From: a virus
Virus record (IMG/VR): IMGVR_UViG_3300045988_164919
Coordinates: 1 to 64,000 of that record
DNA: 64,000 nucleotides
Direction: 5' to 3' (one strand)
Numbering within the stretch: the first letter of the stretch is position 1; each line of letters opens with the position of its first letter. The notes under the pieces are model-generated. The model was not told where the DNA came from and searched no databases. It saw nothing but the letters and a program-made list of their open reading frames with translations. The position numbers and the translations under genes are program-made. Positions 1 to 64,000 of this stretch are shown one piece after another.

Positions 1-46
1 GTTTTTTGTGTATCATTAATTAATTTATAATTCATATACTTACTCC

Positions 47-1150
47 TTATATAATAATTCTTTCTTTATATAATTTAAGAAATAAATCTGGTCCTTCATC
101 AGTTGGACTATCCTTATAATTAGTAAGCATATTTTTATCAAAAATAAAAGATATATTAAAATAATTTCCATATTTAGCTTTTATTTTTAATAAGTTATTT
201 TTTAAATGATAAAATTCTTCATCACCTATTTTTTGAAACTGTCTATCAAAAGCAATAATAATATCTTTTGCACCAACTTGTTCTAATAACTTCATTTGTT
301 GTGTTGATACACTACTACCACAACAAGCTACTGTTATATCATTTTCAAACCCGAAATAGCTCTAAAATTGTAAACAGCTTTTTTCTCCTTCTACTATTAT
401 TGCTTTCCCTGTTCTATTTATATTTGCTTTACTATTATTTAAATTATATAAATTCATGCCAAGAGGATGAGAATAAAGAATCTTATTAATTTTTAATGGT
501 CTATATTTGCCATATAGAGTAGCTTCTTCTTTTCCTAATATTCTTCCTCTTAGTCCTATAAAATTTCCATTTATGTCAAAATGAGGAATAGTAATTGCAT
601 CACCGCCGGGGTAATAACCAATTATAGCTTGATCTATTACTTCTTGACTTATTCCTTCTTTTAACCACGGAGTTAATTTTATATTATAATTAAATCTACT
701 TAAAATTTGGCTATCATAAATTTTTAATTCAACTTTAGTGTTTAAATTTTCTTCTATACTATTTTTATCATAATTAGCTAAAATTTTCCAATCTTCTAAT
801 CCTAGCTTTTCAGCATCTTCTTCAACTGAACCAGCAATCCCAAAATAATTAGCTATCCAACGAACTGCATCATTTAAATCATATTCTTTATTAGACTGGA
901 TATAAGCTACTTTAATTACTAATTCAAATATATCAAATATATCATCACAGCCAGTATAGCATTTAAATAATTGACTATTTGAATAGTAATAAAGTTTTTT
1001 ACTTCCTACTCCTGGTTCATTATGACAAATGGTTTCAGATAAGATACCAAATTCACTATATTCAGGATTGCCGCCCCAAATATTTAGTAATTCAAAAATA
1101 TTGTCTAAAGTTAAACTATTTTTTATTTCTACTTTATCATAATTAATCAT
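47..1150 (-). CDS. DNA primase, DnaG-like (N-terminal CHC2 zinc finger, C-terminal Toprim); one in-frame TAG at 362-364 joins ORFs 362..1150 and 47..295
   Basis: Zinc-finger motif CHNEPGVGSKKLYYY...CYTGC; Toprim motifs IVEGEKS and DSPTDEG lie on either side of the TAG, in the same frame. Confidence 0.7.
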
Positions 1151-1332
1151 TTTATGCCATAAATTAGTGCATTAAAAAAATTTTTATCAATATAATTTGG
1201 TTCATAAGTAAATATAAATGGAGCATTAGATTTTCCATAAGTTGCCTTAAAATCTTTAGCTCTTATAATAACTTTATATCCACTTATAAATTTGCCAGTA
1301 ATTGGGTCTTTACAAATAATTATATCTCTCAT
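1147..1332 (-). CDS. hypothetical protein (61 aa)
   Basis: ORF with ATG overlapping upstream stop (TAATG); no recognisable motif. Confidence 0.3.
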   Translation of the reverse strand: MRDIIICKDPITGKFISGYKVIIRAKDFKATYGKSNAPFIFTYEPNYIDKNFFNALIYGIK

Positions 1333-1514
1333 TAGAAAGTAATTACATTAACACAAGTGCCTTTAACACCAAATTCTTCATTGACTACCTTGATAAGATA
1401 TTCCTTTGGATGTTTCTTTGCGAATTCGCCTTTAGCAGTCTTTAGATACATTGCTGCCATTTCTTTCGGCATTTTATATTCAATAGTTCCATTCATAATC
1501 TTTTTTTCAAACAT
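1332..1514 (-). CDS. hypothetical protein (60 aa)
   Basis: ORF only. Confidence 0.3.
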   Translation of the reverse strand: MFEKKIMNGTIEYKMPKEMAAMYLKTAKGEFAKKHPKEYLIKVVNEEFGVKGTCVNVITF

Positions 1515-1786
1515 AATTTATTCTCCTTAAAATATAACAAAATTATTTGTTGTTGTTAGCGGTTTAATAATTTCTTTTATAATTAGCTATCCAGCTTTAT
1601 CATCATAAAAATGTTTATCATAATAGACTATATCTTTTCGTTTCATACAGCTACCATTATAATTGTAAGGATTAATAAAAATAATACTTATATTTTCATT
1701 TTGATAATTTAAAAACTAAACTGGACGAGGAATTTCCTCATTATCTATACGAATAATATAGCATTTATTTATTTTATTCATAATTT

Positions 1787-3319
1787 TTAAAAAGCACTAT
1801 CTTCAGCAATTCTAATTTTTACATTTTCCATATCTACCAATTCATAACTCCAATCAGTACAGAAGATTGGAATAATACGACAGCAGCCTAAATCAGCTTT
1901 ACACCAAAGATAAATTCCTTTATATTTTCCTCGACGATTTTTATATACTGATAATTTTATTGTTGGACGTTCAAACGTATTTGTTTCAAGTATTTTTTCT
2001 AAAGATTGATAATCATTATCACGAGCTTGAAGAAGAAGCATACCTACATCAATTTTATCAGCAATTGCTTTTGATCCACGTAAAACATTCTGGTCTGGCG
2101 TCTCACTATACTGATAATCAGCATTTAACTGAGTAGCAGACATAATAAAAATACCATATTGATTACAAATATCTTTCAACCGAGTAGAAAGCATAAAAAG
2201 AATATTATCTTCTCTTAGTTTTACACCACCACTACGCTTACTAATTTCTTCAAGAATTTTCATACTTGTATGAATATAATCATGAAATACATATTTAACT
2301 CCATGATCGCGGATATTTTTCTTAATAACATTTTCTACATCACGCAAAGAAAAATCTGGCATTTCAACAACAAATAAATTAGCCTTACGAAGATACTGCG
2401 CAGCTTCTCTTACTCGTGCTAATTCATCACCAACATATTTACCATTTAAAATATGATCTTCATTTACATTAGATAAAAATGCCAACATCATAGTTTGAAT
2501 TTCATCTTTAGTTTGTTCAGTAGAAATAAATAAAACAGGTTCTCCTCCGCCACCAGATTTGATCCATCCAATTCCTTCCTGATAATATTTTTCACAAGAA
2601 AGATAACAAGCGTCAGCAATCATACTACGAGATTTACCTACACCAGTCGCCGCTGAACGTAGATAAAATTTATTTAATCTTGCTCCACGAGTAACTGTAT
2701 TAATTAATGGACCAAACAATGGAGCACCAACTTCAGGATGTTCCAAAAGGTTATCAATTAATTCATCAATATTATTGCCGGCCTAATAAGCATCATTTTC
2801 CATTTCAGCCACATATTGATATTTAATTTCTTCAATCTTATCATCAATACGTTGAGCAATTTTTTCTAATGACGCATTATCTAACCATTCTTCTTGAAGC
2901 TGTCGTTTTTTTGTATCTAAAATATTATCAGGATCGTAGATATCACTTACATCAAAACCATACCTATCATATGCTCTAAGTAATGACATTTTTTTTAGAC
3001 GACCATAATAATAATCGAATGTGGTATTATCACTATGTAAACTGGCTTCTTGAATCCATTTATTTCCTTTTTGTGCTTCATAAATAGCTTGATATTTTGG
3101 TCGAGTGCTTAAAAAATCTCCAATGGCATCTAAAGTAATACTTTCAGCACCGAGTTCATGTAATTTATATATTGATCCATATACTATCTTATGAAAATCA
3201 TTATCAAAATCATCTTCAGTGATAATATATTTGTCAGTATAATCTAATAGTTTAGGATTGTTATATACACAACCAATTGTCTAAATAATGGCTGTTGTAT
3301 CAATATATTTTGAAGCCAT
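1787..3319 (-). CDS. replicative DNA helicase, DnaB-like; in-frame TAGs at 2783-2785 and 3281-3283
   Basis: Walker A SAATGVGKS and RecA-like core; ORFs 1787..2746, 2783..2989 and the segment up to ATG at 3317-3319 are all in one frame separated only by TAG. Confidence 0.6.
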
Positions 3320-61902: not shown

Positions 61903-61906
61903 ATTC

Positions 61907-62248
61907 TTATATATTTATAGTAGAAGAACCACAATCGAAAATTACATAGTTGGTATCAGGATTAGCACCTATTTCATCAAGGGTATAAGATGGCTTTGCA
62001 GGTGCCTTAGCCCATGCCGGGACATCTGCTCCAAGCCCTGCACCCCAAGGTAGTTTTTCCCATGTGGTTGTACCATCACCAACTTTAAATAGTACAGTAG
62101 GAGCTGTGGTCGTTGTACCAGATGTAATCGCCGGCACATAGCATAAGCCAATTTCGCCTTTAAGCAGTACAACTGATGTATTCTTTAACCATTTATCTAA
62201 AGTATCATACTTTAATTTAATTCGTGTATTAAATTCTTTTTGAGCCAT
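61907..62248 (-). CDS. fiber-associated protein with GEIGL...VGDGTTTW motif (GC-richer, no TAG)
   Basis: LLKGEIGLCYVPA...FKVGDGTTTWEKLPW. Confidence 0.45.
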   Translation of the reverse strand: MAQKEFNTRIKLKYDTLDKWLKNTSVVLLKGEIGLCYVPAITSGTTTTAPTVLFKVGDGTTTWEKLPWGAGLGADVPAWAKAPAKPSYTLDEIGANPDTNYVIFDCGSSTINI

Positions 62249-62280
62249 TCTTTATTCTCCTTTCTCTTTTACTATTGGAA

Positions 62281-62300
62281 GGGAGAGATTTCTCTCTCCC
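62281..62300 (-). terminator. GC-rich hairpin between fiber gene stop and next gene
   Basis: gggagaga-tttc-tctctccc. Confidence 0.4.
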
Positions 62301-62311
62301 TAGTATATATA

Positions 62312-64000
62312 TCAAAGAGAAGCAGCGGTGCCACCATTGAGAATAAGAGTTTTAGCACCTTGAGTTAATAGATCAGTACTGATTGCTTCAATATTAACAG
62401 CTTTATCAGCAATTTCAAGAGCAGTGCCGCCAATCTTAATGACTTCAATCACGTTGACCTGTGCATTAGCAGCAATACCGGCCAATTTAGTGCTTTCAGC
62501 AGCGGTCATTAGCTGTTTGCCATCTTCTTTTGCAACATAGCCAGCTTTAATATCAGCAGTCTTTGCATATGGTGCAAGATCGGCAGCCTATAGTGCTGTA
62601 TCAGCTTTATCTAGGCTATCTTGTACAGCCTAAGCTAGCTTTGCCTTTGTAATCGTACCATCATTGATAACGGCAGTGACCTTATGCTCGGCATCAATCT
62701 TGATTTCGACCATATCGCCAGCCTAAGAGCCGCTAGTTACATATTCAATAAGATCGCCAACATTGATATATACCTTGTCAGAGGTTTCATTAGCTAGAGT
62801 AAGAACTAGATAAGTACCTGCAACACCCCAGACACCGGCATCAGCCTTAGTTTCAACAGTACCAGAGCTGACCACCATATCTTTGGGGATATCAATGGTT
62901 ACAATATCACTACCATTCTGGCTAAGGACATAACGTTTGGCAATGCCAGTAGGACTACTAACATCAGCAGTAACGGTATAATTAACCTGTGAAGGAATAG
63001 CCGCAATTTTTTCATCTACATAACCAATAACAGTAGTAGCTTTAGCGCCTACTGGAATAGTACCAACTTTACCGCTTAATGTATCAACAGAAGTCTGAGC
63101 ATCAGTGCCAGCTTGCTTTGCATCAGCAACAGCTGCATCAACTTCAGTCTTAACAGCATAGCCCTTAGCTTCAACCTCAGTCATAGTAGTTTTCTTATTA
63201 GCAAGGTCATAAGCTTCCTTTACAGTACCAGTATATCCGTCTCCAAGGATCTCAACCTTTAAAGCAGTATCCTTAGATGCGGCATCTGTTGCTGCGGCCT
63301 CAATAGCCTCATTCTTAGCAGTAGAGATAGCAGTACTAACCTTTGCTACATCAACTTTGCCTTCAAGAATAGTTACACGACCAGCAATAGCAGAACTATC
63401 ACCGACTAAGCTATCAGCATAAGTTTTAGCCTAACCAAGAGTAGTCTTACCGACTTCATCAGCATAAAGTTTAGCACCACGAATAGTTTTACTATCTACA
63501 GTATCAATTTCAGTCTGATTATCTTCTCCACCAAGAGTGTGAATTAAATGATCAACAGCAGTATTTACCGTAGATACAGTAGCAGCCTTATTAACGCCAG
63601 CATCGTATTTACCATCAAAGGTTACTGTATCTTGTTTACCTTTAAGGGCGGTCTGAAGACCATCAATCTTAGAAATACCAAGAGTAGGAATATCATCAGC
63701 AACTAATTCACGGCGAATAACTGCAATTTGACCATTGGTCTGCGTAACGGCAGAAACGAGCTGTTTAGCAACCGCTGCGTCATCTAGTTTTAGTTTATCA
63801 ATATAACCCTTTGCAGTTGTTTCAGCAGCACTCTGAGCTGCAGTTGCTTTTTCCTCAGCATATTTCTTAGCACCCTTAATGGTAAGAGCATCAGCCTTAT
63901 CAGCATCAGCACCTTCAAGAGCTGTCTTTATGCCAGCCGCAGTACCAGCAGTATCATAAGCAGTGGAATCGGTATATGCAGCACTCTTTAGTCCAGTGAC
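62312..64000 (-). CDS. Ala/Thr/Lys-rich coiled-coil fiber protein; the 5-prime end lies beyond the window; several TAGs
   Basis: ORFs 62723..63184 and 62312..62509 share a frame and are joined through TAG 62723-62725; repetitive KAGYVAKEDGK / VEAKGYAVKTEVDAAVADAK; GC-richer. Confidence 0.45.

What the first reader, a model, noticed from the sequence alone, without database searches (positions are those of the whole stretch)
1..64000. TAG (amber) is decoded as a sense codon throughout the window
More than 100 in-frame TAGs sit inside genes whose conserved domains continue on both sides of the codon. Examples: the primase Toprim motifs flank TAG 362-364; the Sak4 Walker A YGKPKTGKTT can only be reached by reading through two TAGs; endolysin CHAP and amidase domains, radical-SAM CxxxCxxC plus SPASM, the methyltransferase catalytic and TRD halves, and the GT8 DxD segment all span TAGs. 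Every gene ends at TAA or TGA. A standard-code gene call splits most genes into fragments and leaves long ORF-free stretches (for example 36.5-38.8 kb). The pattern matches recoded-stop phages that use translation table 15, but I cannot tell from sequence which amino acid is inserted.
Basis: partly seen in the sequence, partly recalled or inferred. Interest (0 to 1): 0.8.

Follow-up and report, generated by a model that had tools for sequence, protein, structure and literature searches.

The report
Phage reads TAG stop as glutamine
This 64-kb piece of an uncultivated rumen or gut phage uses the stop codon TAG as a glutamine codon and carries its own suppressor tRNA for it; this kind of recoding is already known, but a related phage appears to read TAG as tryptophan, which I did not find reported.

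Summary
Treating TAG as sense raises coding density from 63% to 91%. It gives 145 in-frame TAGs in 35 of 61 minus-strand genes, and every one of these ORFs closes at TAA or TGA. After a standard-code ORF that ends in TAG, the frame stays open for a median of 147 codons, against 13 after TAA and 7 after TGA.

The inserted amino acid can be named: it is glutamine. Opposite window TAGs, standard-code relatives carry Q most often (42 of 137), and Q is by far the best-fitting residue. A tRNA(CUA) lies at 41641-41715. It has an ordinary cloverleaf, an unpaired 1:72 position, G73, and its own sigma-70-type promoter.

TAG use is not uniform. Twenty-six genes have none, including ligase, topoisomerase II and RNase H, and most TAG-free genes with an intergenic gap sit behind the same promoter type. 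Fibre-like, lysis and radical-SAM genes use TAG for 37-47% of their glutamine codons.

This is a new member of a known kind (translation table 15 phages).

Side finding: a relative with about 51% protein identity places TAG at invariant tryptophan positions. Its tRNA(CUA) is a copy of the neighbouring tRNA-Trp.

The parts
41641..41715 (-). Suppressor tRNA with anticodon CUA. It is 75 nt with an encoded CCA, a canonical cloverleaf (G18G19, TTCGA T-loop, 5-bp anticodon stem, 4-nt variable loop), a U1.U72 mismatch, G73 and G10.
   Evidence: ARAGORN (the label 'Pyl' only reflects the CTA anticodon). Rfam tRNA model, 49.2 bits. Sequence and fold. An identical copy is in L031 and a copy with 1 nt difference is in L030/L033.
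41844..41872 (-). Sigma-70-type promoter (TTGATT, 17 nt, TATAAT) about 130 nt upstream of the suppressor tRNA.
   Evidence: Tool scan. It belongs to the TTGAnn-17-TATAATAT family, which has 19 intergenic copies.
43371..43445 (-). Phage tRNA-Gln(UUG) with A1-U72 and G73. It reads CAA/CAG and is not a close paralogue of the suppressor (59% identity).
9067..15608 (-). TAG-free block: ATP-dependent DNA ligase, topoisomerase II A and B subunits, RNase H and DUF5662. It has 59 CAA/CAG codons and no TAG.
   Evidence: Pfam. Codon counts. Ligase and topoisomerase II A/B orthologues in all code-15 relatives have 0 TAG against 590 CAA/CAG codons.
22458..35541 (-). Mostly TAG-free region with 5 TAGs in about 4000 codons. 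It holds flotillin/band 7, two metallophosphatases, AAA_33, GNAT, NADAR, a major-vault-protein-like gene, DUF2828/DUF7788, an Eco57I-type methylase (1 TAG at 32598) and an SLH protein. Many of these genes lie behind TTGAnn-17-TATAATAT promoters.
47..7107 (-). Replication-type genes with a low TAG share (9 TAG of 66 Gln-type codons): primase-like (TAG 362-364), DnaB-like (3281-3283, 2783-2785), Sak4/AAA_24 (4884-4886, 4797-4799) and a weak Thy1 match.
   Evidence: DnaB aa 13 is Q in 8 of 8 standard-code relatives.
7399..8397 (-). GIY-YIG protein with 10 in-frame TAGs. TAG 7618-7620 lies inside the GIY-YIG domain and is Q in 8 of 9 standard-code relatives.
16330..18101 (-). Lysis genes. A membrane protein that looks like a holin (16330-16788) uses TAG for 5 of its 7 Gln-type codons. 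The CHAP + Amidase_2 endolysin (16809-18101) has TAGs at 17142-17144 and 17034-17036.
   Evidence: Pfam. Codon counts. The holin role is inferred from hydrophobic segments and position only; PHROGs gave no match.
18152..19408 (-). PIN + PhoH protein with 5 TAGs. TAG 18380-18382 sits in the Walker B motif 'SEA-X-N', which aligns with 'DEAQN' of PDB 3b85.
35647..40083 (-). Two fibre-like genes with 18 TAGs, 31 CAA and 0 CAG. Under the standard code this stretch is almost free of ORFs.
   Evidence: The fibre annotation rests on shared C-terminal motifs with the 54.6-60.5 kb genes; PHROGs gave nothing for 35647-36519.
44580..54195 (-). Very AT-rich cluster (GC 0.17-0.25) of radical-SAM and SPASM-like enzymes, GT8-like and GT2 glycosyltransferases and three paralogous unknown genes. 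It has 45 TAGs, a 45% share of Gln-type codons.
54270..64000 (-). Tail-fibre and baseplate-like genes with 37 TAGs (40% share). The last gene runs off the window.
   Evidence: PHROGs tail fibre and baseplate wedge matches. Codon counts.

Best explanation
The window is part of a phage genome of roughly 110-190 kb, from the rumen or an animal gut. Its strong AAGGAGG ribosome-binding sites suggest a Firmicutes-type host. The phage uses genetic code 15: TAG encodes glutamine, and TAA and TGA terminate.

Shown:
- TAG lies inside 35 conserved genes.
- Single ORFs of standard-code relatives span those positions.
- Relatives carry Gln there.
- The phage encodes a canonical tRNA with anticodon CUA.

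Inferred:
- The tRNA is charged with Gln by the host's glutamine-charging enzymes. It carries G73, G10, U35, A37 and an unpaired 1:72 position, the acceptor-end features that E. coli GlnRS uses. The same signature recurs in 13 of 16 distinct tRNA(CUA) genes of related phages.
- The charged tRNA then competes with host release factor 1 at UAG.
- Recoding is linked to the infection programme. Genes that must work before the suppressor accumulates (ligase, topoisomerase II, RNase H and many genes behind host-type sigma-70 promoters) are kept free of TAG.
- The suppressor tRNA is driven by the same promoter type.
- Fibre-like, lysis and radical-SAM/glycosyltransferase genes use TAG for 37-47% of their glutamine codons, so they can be made full-length only once suppression is active.
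For: 1. Coding density is 0.63 under code 11 and 0.91 with TAG as sense; code 4 gives no gain.
2. The frame stays open for a median of 147 codons after TAG, against 13 after TAA and 7 after TGA, p=6e-11.
3. Pfam domains run across TAG positions.
4. 22 of 27 covered TAG sites are spanned by one stop-free ORF in a standard-code relative.
5. Residues opposite TAG:
   - Q is 42 of 137 in standard-code relatives. Log-likelihood is -320 for Q against -412 for E.
   - The profile is the same as for the window's CAA/CAG codons.
   - In relatives 93-98% identical, TAG is kept 182 times and replaced by CAA or CAG 26 times against 12 other codons.
   - At columns conserved in relatives, the window puts TAG on Q (4) and never on W (70 TGG).
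   - PDB 3b85 'DEAQN' aligns with the window's 'SEAXN'.
6. Counting TAG as Gln raises Gln-type codons from 2.17 to 3.40 per 100 aa in TAG-containing genes; TAG-free genes have 2.88.
7. tRNA(CUA) is called by ARAGORN and Rfam. A 1:72 mismatch occurs in 13 of 16 suppressors against 5 of 229 other tRNAs, and G73 in 16 of 16. The identity sets are taken from PMC9976931.
8. TAG is unevenly spread among genes: G=196 against a permutation maximum of 122. Ligase and topoisomerase II A/B orthologues have 0 TAG against 590 CAA/CAG codons across all code-15 relatives.
9. TTGAnn-17-TATAATAT promoters lie within 100 nt upstream of 9 of 15 TAG-free genes and 1 of 20 TAG-containing genes that have an intergenic gap (p=5.6e-4). 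They also lie upstream of the suppressor tRNA.
10. Standard-code relatives use TAG as a stop in 15 of 152 genes.
Against: - There are no peptide data, so Gln insertion is inferred from alignments only.
- The host is unknown. Related contigs occur only in MAG bins with conflicting labels. Host code, and whether the host has GlnRS or uses the GluRS/amidotransferase route, are therefore untested.
- The suppressor lacks the G2-C71 and G3-C70 pairs of the E. coli Gln identity set; it has C-G at both.
- The temporal model has no expression data. The suppressor shares the 'early' promoter type, so any delay would depend on tRNA accumulation. Replication genes also carry 1-2 TAGs each. A few promoter copies precede TAG-containing genes (8817-9008, 54618-55052).
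- The nucleotide after TAG shows no bias of the kind expected if suppression efficiency were under selection.
- No release factor or aminoacyl-tRNA synthetase gene lies in this window. The rest of the genome was not seen.
Confidence: 0.85

Rival explanations
1. TAG is decoded as an amino acid other than glutamine: tryptophan as in the relative L016, pyrrolysine as ARAGORN's label suggests, or a mixture.
For: ARAGORN prints 'tRNA-Pyl' for the CUA tRNA. A related phage clearly uses TAG at Trp positions. About two thirds of residues opposite TAG in distant relatives are not Q.
Against: - Q is favoured by more than 90 log-likelihood units over every other residue. The non-Q residues match the substitution profile of ordinary Gln codons.
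- The window has 0 TAG at 71 conserved-W columns.
- The tRNA has G18G19, a TTCGA T-loop, a 5-bp anticodon stem and a 4-nt variable loop. From general knowledge, tRNA-Pyl lacks these.
- No pyl genes were found in the Pfam scans.
Confidence: 0.04
2. The TAGs are real stops. The genes would then be pseudogenes, assembly errors, or products of rare programmed read-through, not of a changed code.
For: None beyond the formal possibility. Under code 11 many fragments still form ORFs.
Against: - 145 interruptions are all of one stop type.
- 182 of 220 TAG positions are conserved in six independently assembled relatives.
- Where TAG is replaced, the replacement is mostly CAA or CAG.
- Domains and orthologue alignments continue across TAGs.
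- A dedicated tRNA(CUA) has its own promoter.
Confidence: 0.01
3. TAG does mean Gln, but the uneven distribution has no regulatory role. TAG-free genes would simply have a different history or composition (recent acquisition, higher GC, preference for CAG). TAG would accumulate neutrally by C-to-T drift from CAG wherever nothing prevents it.
For: - Several TAG-free genes are GC-richer (0.38-0.41) and prefer CAG: MVP-like 25 CAG to 3 CAA, DUF2828 13 to 0, flotillin 19 to 5.
- CAG is nearly absent from TAG-using genes. TAG+CAG together make 0.44 of Gln codons in TAG-containing genes and 0.43 in TAG-free genes, as if TAG had replaced CAG.
- The suppressor has the same promoter type as the TAG-free genes.
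Against: - The ligase/topoisomerase/RNase H block has ordinary composition (GC about 0.30, 48 CAA to 11 CAG). Its ligase and topoisomerase II genes stay TAG-free in every code-15 relative, close or distant, with 0 TAG against 590 CAA/CAG codons. This points to selection.
- TAG-free status is associated with a specific promoter class (p=5.6e-4).
Confidence: 0.25
4. The host itself reads TAG as sense, so the phage merely matches its host.
For: The host is unidentified. Related contigs were binned with Mollicutes-like, Erysipelotrichaceae and other MAGs, and some Mollicutes are known to use altered codes (TGA, not TAG).
Against: - The phage carries its own suppressor.
- A conserved subset of genes avoids TAG entirely.
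- Close relatives in the same clade use the standard code with TAG stops, or appear to use code 4.
- Borges et al. predict standard-code hosts for such phages.
- From general knowledge, no bacterium with TAG=Gln is known.
Confidence: 0.03

Closest known systems
[quoted passage not shown] Peptide-level proof exists for two crAss-like phages (PMC9523058).
   Same: - In-frame TAG in conserved genes, a large gain in coding density, and TAG aligning with Gln.
- A phage tRNA(CUA).
- Structural and lysis genes recoded most heavily, and DNA-replication genes recoded variably.
- Recoded modules scattered along a large genome.
- Close relatives that use code 11 or code 4.
- Low GC content.
   Different: - No terminase lies in the window, so assignment to any of those clades was not tested.
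- No similar record exists among 50,697 GenBank phage records.
- Not taken from the papers I read: the promoter-class link, and the 1:72-mismatch plus G73 signature of the suppressors.
Phassvirus group (phAss-1, PMC10607447)
   Same: An uncultivated gut phage of about 136 kb with TAG in 41 ORFs and suppressor tRNA genes.
   Different: Relatedness was not tested. I read only the abstract and outline. The INPHARED search with 7.2 kb of this window found no such relative.
E. coli amber suppressors charged by GlnRS: supE, the tRNA-Trp amber suppressor that is glutaminylated, and acceptor-stem mutants that switch to Gln (reviewed in PMC9976931)
   Same: A CUA anticodon with U35, G73 and a weak or open 1:72 pair. 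These are the features reported to direct Gln charging.
   Different: The phage tRNA has C2-G71 and C3-G70 where E. coli tRNA-Gln has G-C. The host synthetase is unknown, and no charging was measured.
Jade-phage 'code change operon' (TrpRS + RF1 + tRNA-UCA upstream of the lysis cassette, Borges et al.)
   Same: The code-changing component is encoded in a stretch readable with the standard code. Here the ORFs of the tRNA block have no TAG.
   Different: Here only a tRNA is seen. No release factor or synthetase gene lies in the 64 kb.

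Membership tests
Genetic code 15 phage (TAG = Gln) | Coding density rises markedly when TAG is read as sense, and not when TGA is. | tested here: met
   0.63 rises to 0.91 for TAG; TGA as sense gives 0.64.
Genetic code 15 phage (TAG = Gln) | In-frame TAGs lie inside conserved genes or domains that continue on both sides. | tested here: met
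   Pfam matches span TAGs. 22 of 27 sites are spanned by single ORFs of standard-code relatives.
Genetic code 15 phage (TAG = Gln) | TAG aligns with glutamine in homologues. | tested here: met
   Q is 42 of 137. Log-likelihood is -320 for Q against -412 for the next residue. At conserved columns TAG falls on Q 4 times and on W 0 times. PDB 3b85 'DEAQN' aligns at the PhoH TAG.
Genetic code 15 phage (TAG = Gln) | Genes end only at TAA or TGA. | tested here: met
   Stops are TAA 55 and TGA 17. This is partly by construction. The frame-extension test supports it independently.
Genetic code 15 phage (TAG = Gln) | A suppressor tRNA with anticodon CUA is encoded. This is common but not universal: about 40-52% of such genomes have one. 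| tested here: met
   41641-41715.
Genetic code 15 phage (TAG = Gln) | Peptides carry Gln at TAG positions. | not testable with these tools
   This needs proteomics.
Recoding as a regulator of late and lysis genes (Borges model) | A set of genes remains readable with the standard code, while structural and lysis genes are the most heavily recoded. | tested here: met
   Twenty-six TAG-free genes. The holin-like gene uses TAG for 5 of 7 Gln-type codons, and fibre-like genes for 37-40%. Heterogeneity G=196, p<=0.0002. The pattern is conserved in relatives.
Recoding as a regulator of late and lysis genes (Borges model) | TAG-free genes are expressed before suppression sets in. | tested here: inconclusive
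   There is a promoter-class association (p=5.6e-4), but no expression data. The suppressor has the same promoter type.
Pyrrolysine decoding | tRNA-Pyl architecture (small D-loop, no G18G19 or T-psi-C, long anticodon stem, 3-nt variable loop; features recalled from general knowledge) together with pylS/pylBCD genes. | tested here: not met
   The tRNA is a canonical cloverleaf. No pyl domains were found.
TAG = Trp variant (as seen in relative L016) | TAG at conserved Trp columns, and a tRNA(CUA) paralogous to tRNA-Trp. | tested here: not met
   In the window, 70 of 71 conserved-W columns are TGG and none is TAG. The suppressor is not Trp-like.
Genetic code 4 (TGA = Trp) | Coding density gain when TGA is read as sense. 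| tested here: not met
   0.64 against 0.63.
Crassvirales or a named recoded clade (Agate, Sapphire and so on) | Terminase or capsid phylogeny. | not tested
   No terminase, portal or capsid gene lies in the window.

The most novel reading that the evidence does not exclude
Within this one phage clade the meaning of TAG appears not to be fixed. Most recoded members, including the window, read it as Gln. They use suppressors that share an unpaired 1:72 position plus G73, and those suppressors are swapped as cassettes at one genomic slot: three unrelated tRNA(CUA) alleles occur in phages whose flanks are 83-97% identical. A relative at about 51% protein identity (IMGVR_UViG_3300028805_000058) reads TAG as tryptophan. 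Its tRNA(CUA) is a duplicate of the adjacent tRNA-Trp and carries an added long variable arm, which might keep it from being charged with Gln. I did not find TAG to Trp reported in the papers I could search. Borges et al. state that only TAG to Gln and TGA to Trp were observed.
Probability: 0.7. Interest if true: 0.75.

Novelty: new member of a known kind. Interest (0 to 1): 0.42.

Why it matters
For annotation, this contig and its relatives must be called with table 15. Under table 11 about a third of the coding sequence is lost and most late genes are split into fragments.

For biology, the window offers a compact and testable version of the code-switch idea. It has a defined promoter class, a defined suppressor tRNA and a defined set of TAG-free genes. 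It also gives a concrete hypothesis for how the suppressor acquires Gln: an open 1:72 position plus G73.

The clade holds standard-code, TAG=Gln and apparent TGA=Trp members, and apparently a TAG=Trp member. That makes it a natural system for asking how a stop codon is captured and how its meaning is chosen.

Tried and rejected
- A concatenated 1787-aa query to the search for homologous proteins returned nothing. I used IMG/VR relatives instead.
- Nucleotide search of GenBank phages found no relative.
- Enrichment of TAG in the first 20 codons of genes (a possible 'gatekeeper' role) was not significant: 11% against 6.4%, p=0.07.
- The nucleotide following TAG does not differ from background (A 41% against 37%), so there is no sign of selection on context for suppression.
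- The suppressor is not a recent copy of the phage tRNA-Gln(UUG) (59% identity). Its closest non-suppressor type is tRNA-Gln(CUG) at only 69%. A second identity measure gave no clear parent.
- A few apparent 'TAG = W or L' signals in other loci, such as L036, came from out-of-frame ORFs. In the real frames L036 shows Q.
- One attempt to walk along the L016 contig in IMG/VR hit a storage boundary and returned the same locus. A metagenome copy and a further IMG/VR scan then reached the tRNA array.
- Host prediction through genome contigs gave only MAG bins with conflicting taxonomy.
- Pfam on long concatenated queries missed weak domains. Re-scanning proteins one at a time gave only sub-threshold Toprim, Thy1 and GT8 matches.

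Full report
**What is in the window.** The 64 kb have 29.6% GC, and almost all genes are on the minus strand. A greedy tiling of ORFs covers 63% of the sequence under the standard code and 91% when TAG is read as sense. It covers 64% when TGA is read as sense. Reading TAA as sense raises coverage only by adding incoherent ORFs on both strands.

With ribosome-binding-site-guided starts I count 61 minus-strand genes with 18,586 codons and 145 in-frame TAGs in 35 genes. The sites are strong AAGGAGG motifs. In the first tiling of 72 ORFs the stops were TAA 55 and TGA 17.

'No TAG stops' follows from how the ORFs were defined, so I ran a test that does not assume the answer. For every standard-code ORF of at least 60 aa on the minus strand, I measured how far the frame stays open beyond its stop. 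The median is 147 codons after TAG, 13 after TAA and 7 after TGA (p=6e-11).

**Domain and homologue continuity.**
- Pfam matches to AAA_24 (Sak4-like), GIY-YIG, Amidase_2, PhoH, PIN_4, Radical_SAM and Glycos_transf_2 all run across TAG positions.
- IMG/VR holds relatives of the topoisomerase II A gene. Six are 93-98% identical in protein and also TAG-rich. Others, at 45-65% identity, fall into three groups by coding density and alignments: TAG-recoded, standard-code, and apparently TGA-recoded.
- Of the 27 window TAG sites that fall in alignments to standard-code relatives, 22 are spanned by at least 20 residues on each side by one stop-free ORF of the relative. The other five lie near gene ends.

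**Which amino acid.**
- Opposite window TAGs, standard-code relatives have Q 42, K 22, D 14, E 12, N 11 and others fewer, out of 137.
- I used the substitution profiles of the window's own 20 amino acids in the same alignments as models. Q fits with log-likelihood -320 and the next best, E, with -412. The observed profile is nearly the same as that opposite CAA/CAG codons (29% Q, 14% K, 13% E).
- In the close relatives, TAG is kept at 182 aligned positions. It is replaced by CAA 19 times, by CAG 7 times and by other codons 12 times.
- At columns where at least 80% of relatives agree, the window puts TAG on consensus-Q columns four times, on H once, and never on the 71 consensus-W columns.
- Clear single sites:
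  - DnaB-like aa 13 is Q in 8 of 8 standard-code relatives.
  - GIY-YIG aa 267 is Q in 8 of 9.
  - The PhoH Walker B 'SEA-X-N' aligns with 'DEAQN' in PDB 3b85.
- Counting TAG as Gln raises Gln-type codons in TAG-containing genes from 2.17 to 3.40 per 100 residues. TAG-free genes have 2.88.
- TAG makes up 24% of all Gln-type codons.

**The decoder.**
- ARAGORN finds six tRNAs at 40.2-44.5 kb, all on the coding strand. One has anticodon CUA, at 41641-41715. Rfam's tRNA model scores it 49 bits. The 'Pyl' label is only ARAGORN's name for that anticodon.
- The sequence folds into an ordinary cloverleaf. It has G18G19, a TTCGA T-loop, a 7-nt anticodon loop CUCUAAA, a 4-nt variable loop and an encoded CCA.
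- Position 1:72 is a U.U mismatch and the discriminator is G73.
- Across the related loci I collected 16 distinct tRNA(CUA) genes with encoded CCA. Thirteen have a 1:72 mismatch and all 16 have G73. Among 229 distinct other tRNAs only 5 have a 1:72 mismatch.
- The review PMC9976931 lists G73, U1-A72, G10, U35 and A37 among the bacterial Gln identity elements. It also reports that amber suppressors derived from other tRNAs become glutamine acceptors through the anticodon and changes at 1-72 and 3-70.
- I therefore infer that host glutamine-charging enzymes load this tRNA. This step is not shown, and the tRNA lacks the G2-C71 and G3-C70 pairs of the E. coli set.
- No release factor or synthetase gene lies in the window.

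**TAG use is uneven.**
- A permutation of TAG labels over all Gln-type codons gives G=196, against a maximum of 122 in 5000 permutations. Fourteen of 43 genes with at least five Gln-type codons have no TAG, where 3.8 are expected.
- The ligase/topoisomerase II/RNase H/DUF5662 block (9067-15608) has 59 CAA/CAG and no TAG.
- Its ligase and topoisomerase II A/B orthologues in all TAG-recoded relatives, close and distant, have 0 TAG against 590 CAA/CAG.
- TAG share of Gln-type codons by group:

| Gene group | TAG share |
|---|---|
| Replication-type genes | 14% |
| GIY-YIG to 8817-9008 genes | 38% |
| Holin-like gene plus endolysin | 47% |
| Fibre-like genes | 37-40% |
| AT-rich radical-SAM/glycosyltransferase cluster | 45% |

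- CAG is almost absent from TAG-using genes (30 of 399 Gln-type codons) but makes up 43% in TAG-free genes. TAG+CAG together make 0.44 and 0.43 in the two classes. This looks as if TAG had taken the place of CAG, one C-to-T step away, wherever it is tolerated.

**A promoter class goes with TAG-free genes and with the suppressor.**
- The motif TTGAnn-17 nt-TATAATAT occurs 26 times on the coding strand. Nineteen of these are intergenic.
- Among genes with an upstream gap of at least 45 nt, it lies within 100 nt of the start of 9 of 15 TAG-free genes and 1 of 20 TAG-containing genes (Fisher p=5.6e-4).
- Copies also precede the suppressor tRNA (TTGATT-17-TATAAT at 41872-41844), the ROOL RNA, tRNA-Gln/Tyr and tRNA-Thr. 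The tool's own scan ranks these among its best matches.
- This fits the published model of genes readable with the host's code and host polymerase first, and recoded late and lysis genes after suppression sets in.
- It remains an inference. There are no expression data, the suppressor shares the early-type promoter, and replication genes also carry a few TAGs.

**Comparison with what is known.**
- TAG-to-Gln recoding in uncultivated gut phages is well described, with suppressor tRNAs, heavier recoding of structural and lysis genes, and mixed codes within clades. Peptide-level proof exists for two crAss-like phages (PMC9523058).
- Annotation tools already handle table 15 (PMC11210395).
- The window is thus a new member of a known kind.
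- It has no relative among GenBank phage records.
- Its host is unresolved, because related contigs sit in MAG bins with conflicting labels from rumen and gut samples.

**Side finding: a relative that reads TAG as tryptophan.**
- Relative L016 (IMGVR_UViG_3300028805_000058 = Ga0310691_10000132, 146 kb) also gains coding density with TAG as sense, 0.78 to 0.91.
- Its TAGs sit on invariant tryptophan columns:
  - 'TVHR-X-F' in the endolysin, where the window has 'TVHRWF'.
  - 'ADR-X-KQH' in the GIY-YIG protein, where the window has 'ADRWKQH'.
  - One site is W in 23 of 23 relatives.
- Five of 18 conserved-W columns use TAG, and none of 25 conserved-Q columns does.
- Its tRNA(CUA) (L085:7800-7892) lies 9 nt downstream of tRNA-Trp(CCA). 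The two share the acceptor stem (with one compensatory pair), G1.U72, G73 and an identical T arm. The suppressor carries an added long variable arm.
- Borges et al. state that only TAG to Gln and TGA to Trp were seen. Two further literature searches turned up no TAG-to-Trp phage.

**Side finding: the suppressor slot is a replacement hot spot.** Phages whose flanks are 83-97% identical to the window carry two other, unrelated tRNA(CUA) genes at exactly the same position. All three alleles have a 1:72 mismatch and G73.

Noticed in passing
L016 1-22325; L085 7720-7892 (contig IMGVR_UViG_3300028805_000058 = Ga0310691_10000132): A relative with about 51% protein identity uses TAG at invariant Trp positions (5 of 18 conserved-W columns and 0 of 25 conserved-Q columns). 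It has a 93-nt tRNA(CUA) directly after its tRNA-Trp(CCA), and the two share acceptor stem, T arm and G73. This appears to be TAG = Trp, which I did not find in the papers I searched.
   Followed up: partly
window 41641-41715; L036 4943-5017; L035 3976-4047: Three unrelated tRNA(CUA) genes occupy the same slot in phages whose flanks are 83-97% identical. In L035 the allele comes with a roughly 900-bp insert encoding a 102-aa protein with cysteine pairs (CxxC) (3662-3970). ARAGORN misses that allele, which has an odd T-loop; Rfam scores it 38.9 bits.
   Followed up: partly
related loci L030-L082: Of 16 distinct tRNA(CUA) genes with encoded CCA, 13 have a mismatch at 1:72 and all 16 have G73. 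Only 5 of 229 other tRNAs have such a mismatch. L043, L051 and L080 carry 91-95-nt tRNA(CUA) genes with long variable arms; the amino acid they insert was not determined.
   Followed up: partly
window 42608-43201 (-) and 40590-40702 (-): A ROOL RNA (Rfam RF03087, 320 bits) and a RAGATH-33 RNA (139 bits) sit inside the tRNA block. The ROOL has its own TTGAAA-17-TATAAT promoter.
   Followed up: no
window 22860-24239, 26680-27123, 27477-29957, 30536-32074: A major-vault-protein-like gene (Vault_3 + MVP_shoulder, 826 aa) lies near a DUF2828/DUF7788 protein, a NADAR protein and a flotillin/band 7 protein. The MVP-like, DUF2828 and flotillin genes are TAG-free, relatively GC-rich (0.38-0.41) and prefer CAG; the NADAR gene is TAG-free, with GC 0.35 and CAA-dominant. 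This is an unusual gene set for a phage. The DUF2828 gene is shared by 45 IMG/VR contigs of up to 402 kb.
   Followed up: no
window, 19 intergenic sites on the minus strand (for example 6434, 10306, 16320, 27424, 32155, 34008, 34340, 35625, 41849, 43243, 43492, 44311, 44560): A highly uniform promoter-like element, TTGAnn-17-TATAATAT. It precedes mainly TAG-free genes and the RNA genes.
   Followed up: partly
window 44580-54195: A very AT-rich cluster (GC 0.17-0.25). It holds three paralogous proteins with no significant Pfam match (44580-45455, 46831-47763, 47774-48622), three radical-SAM enzymes, one of them fused to a GT2 domain, and a GT8-like protein. It may be a modification or glycosylation pathway.
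   Followed up: no
L011-L015, L023, L026, L029 (standard code); L017-L019, L024 (apparent TGA = Trp): The same clade contains members that use the standard code, with TAG as the stop in 15 of 152 genes. It also contains members whose coding density rises with TGA as sense; in L017, TGA aligns with W five times.
   Followed up: partly
window, all genes: CAG is nearly absent from TAG-using genes (30 of 399 Gln-type codons) but makes up 43% of Gln codons in TAG-free genes. TAG+CAG shares are 0.44 and 0.43 in the two classes.
   Followed up: yes
L043 6312-6660; L071 2485-2739; L083 1482-1826: Related phages carry tmRNA genes inside their tRNA arrays.
   Followed up: no
L086-L092: Contigs related to this phage are binned into MAGs labelled Selenomonadaceae, Mollicutes, Clostridia, Bacteroidales, Anaeroplasmatales and Erysipelotrichaceae. 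These are probably binning artefacts, so such bins should not be used for host calls.
   Followed up: no
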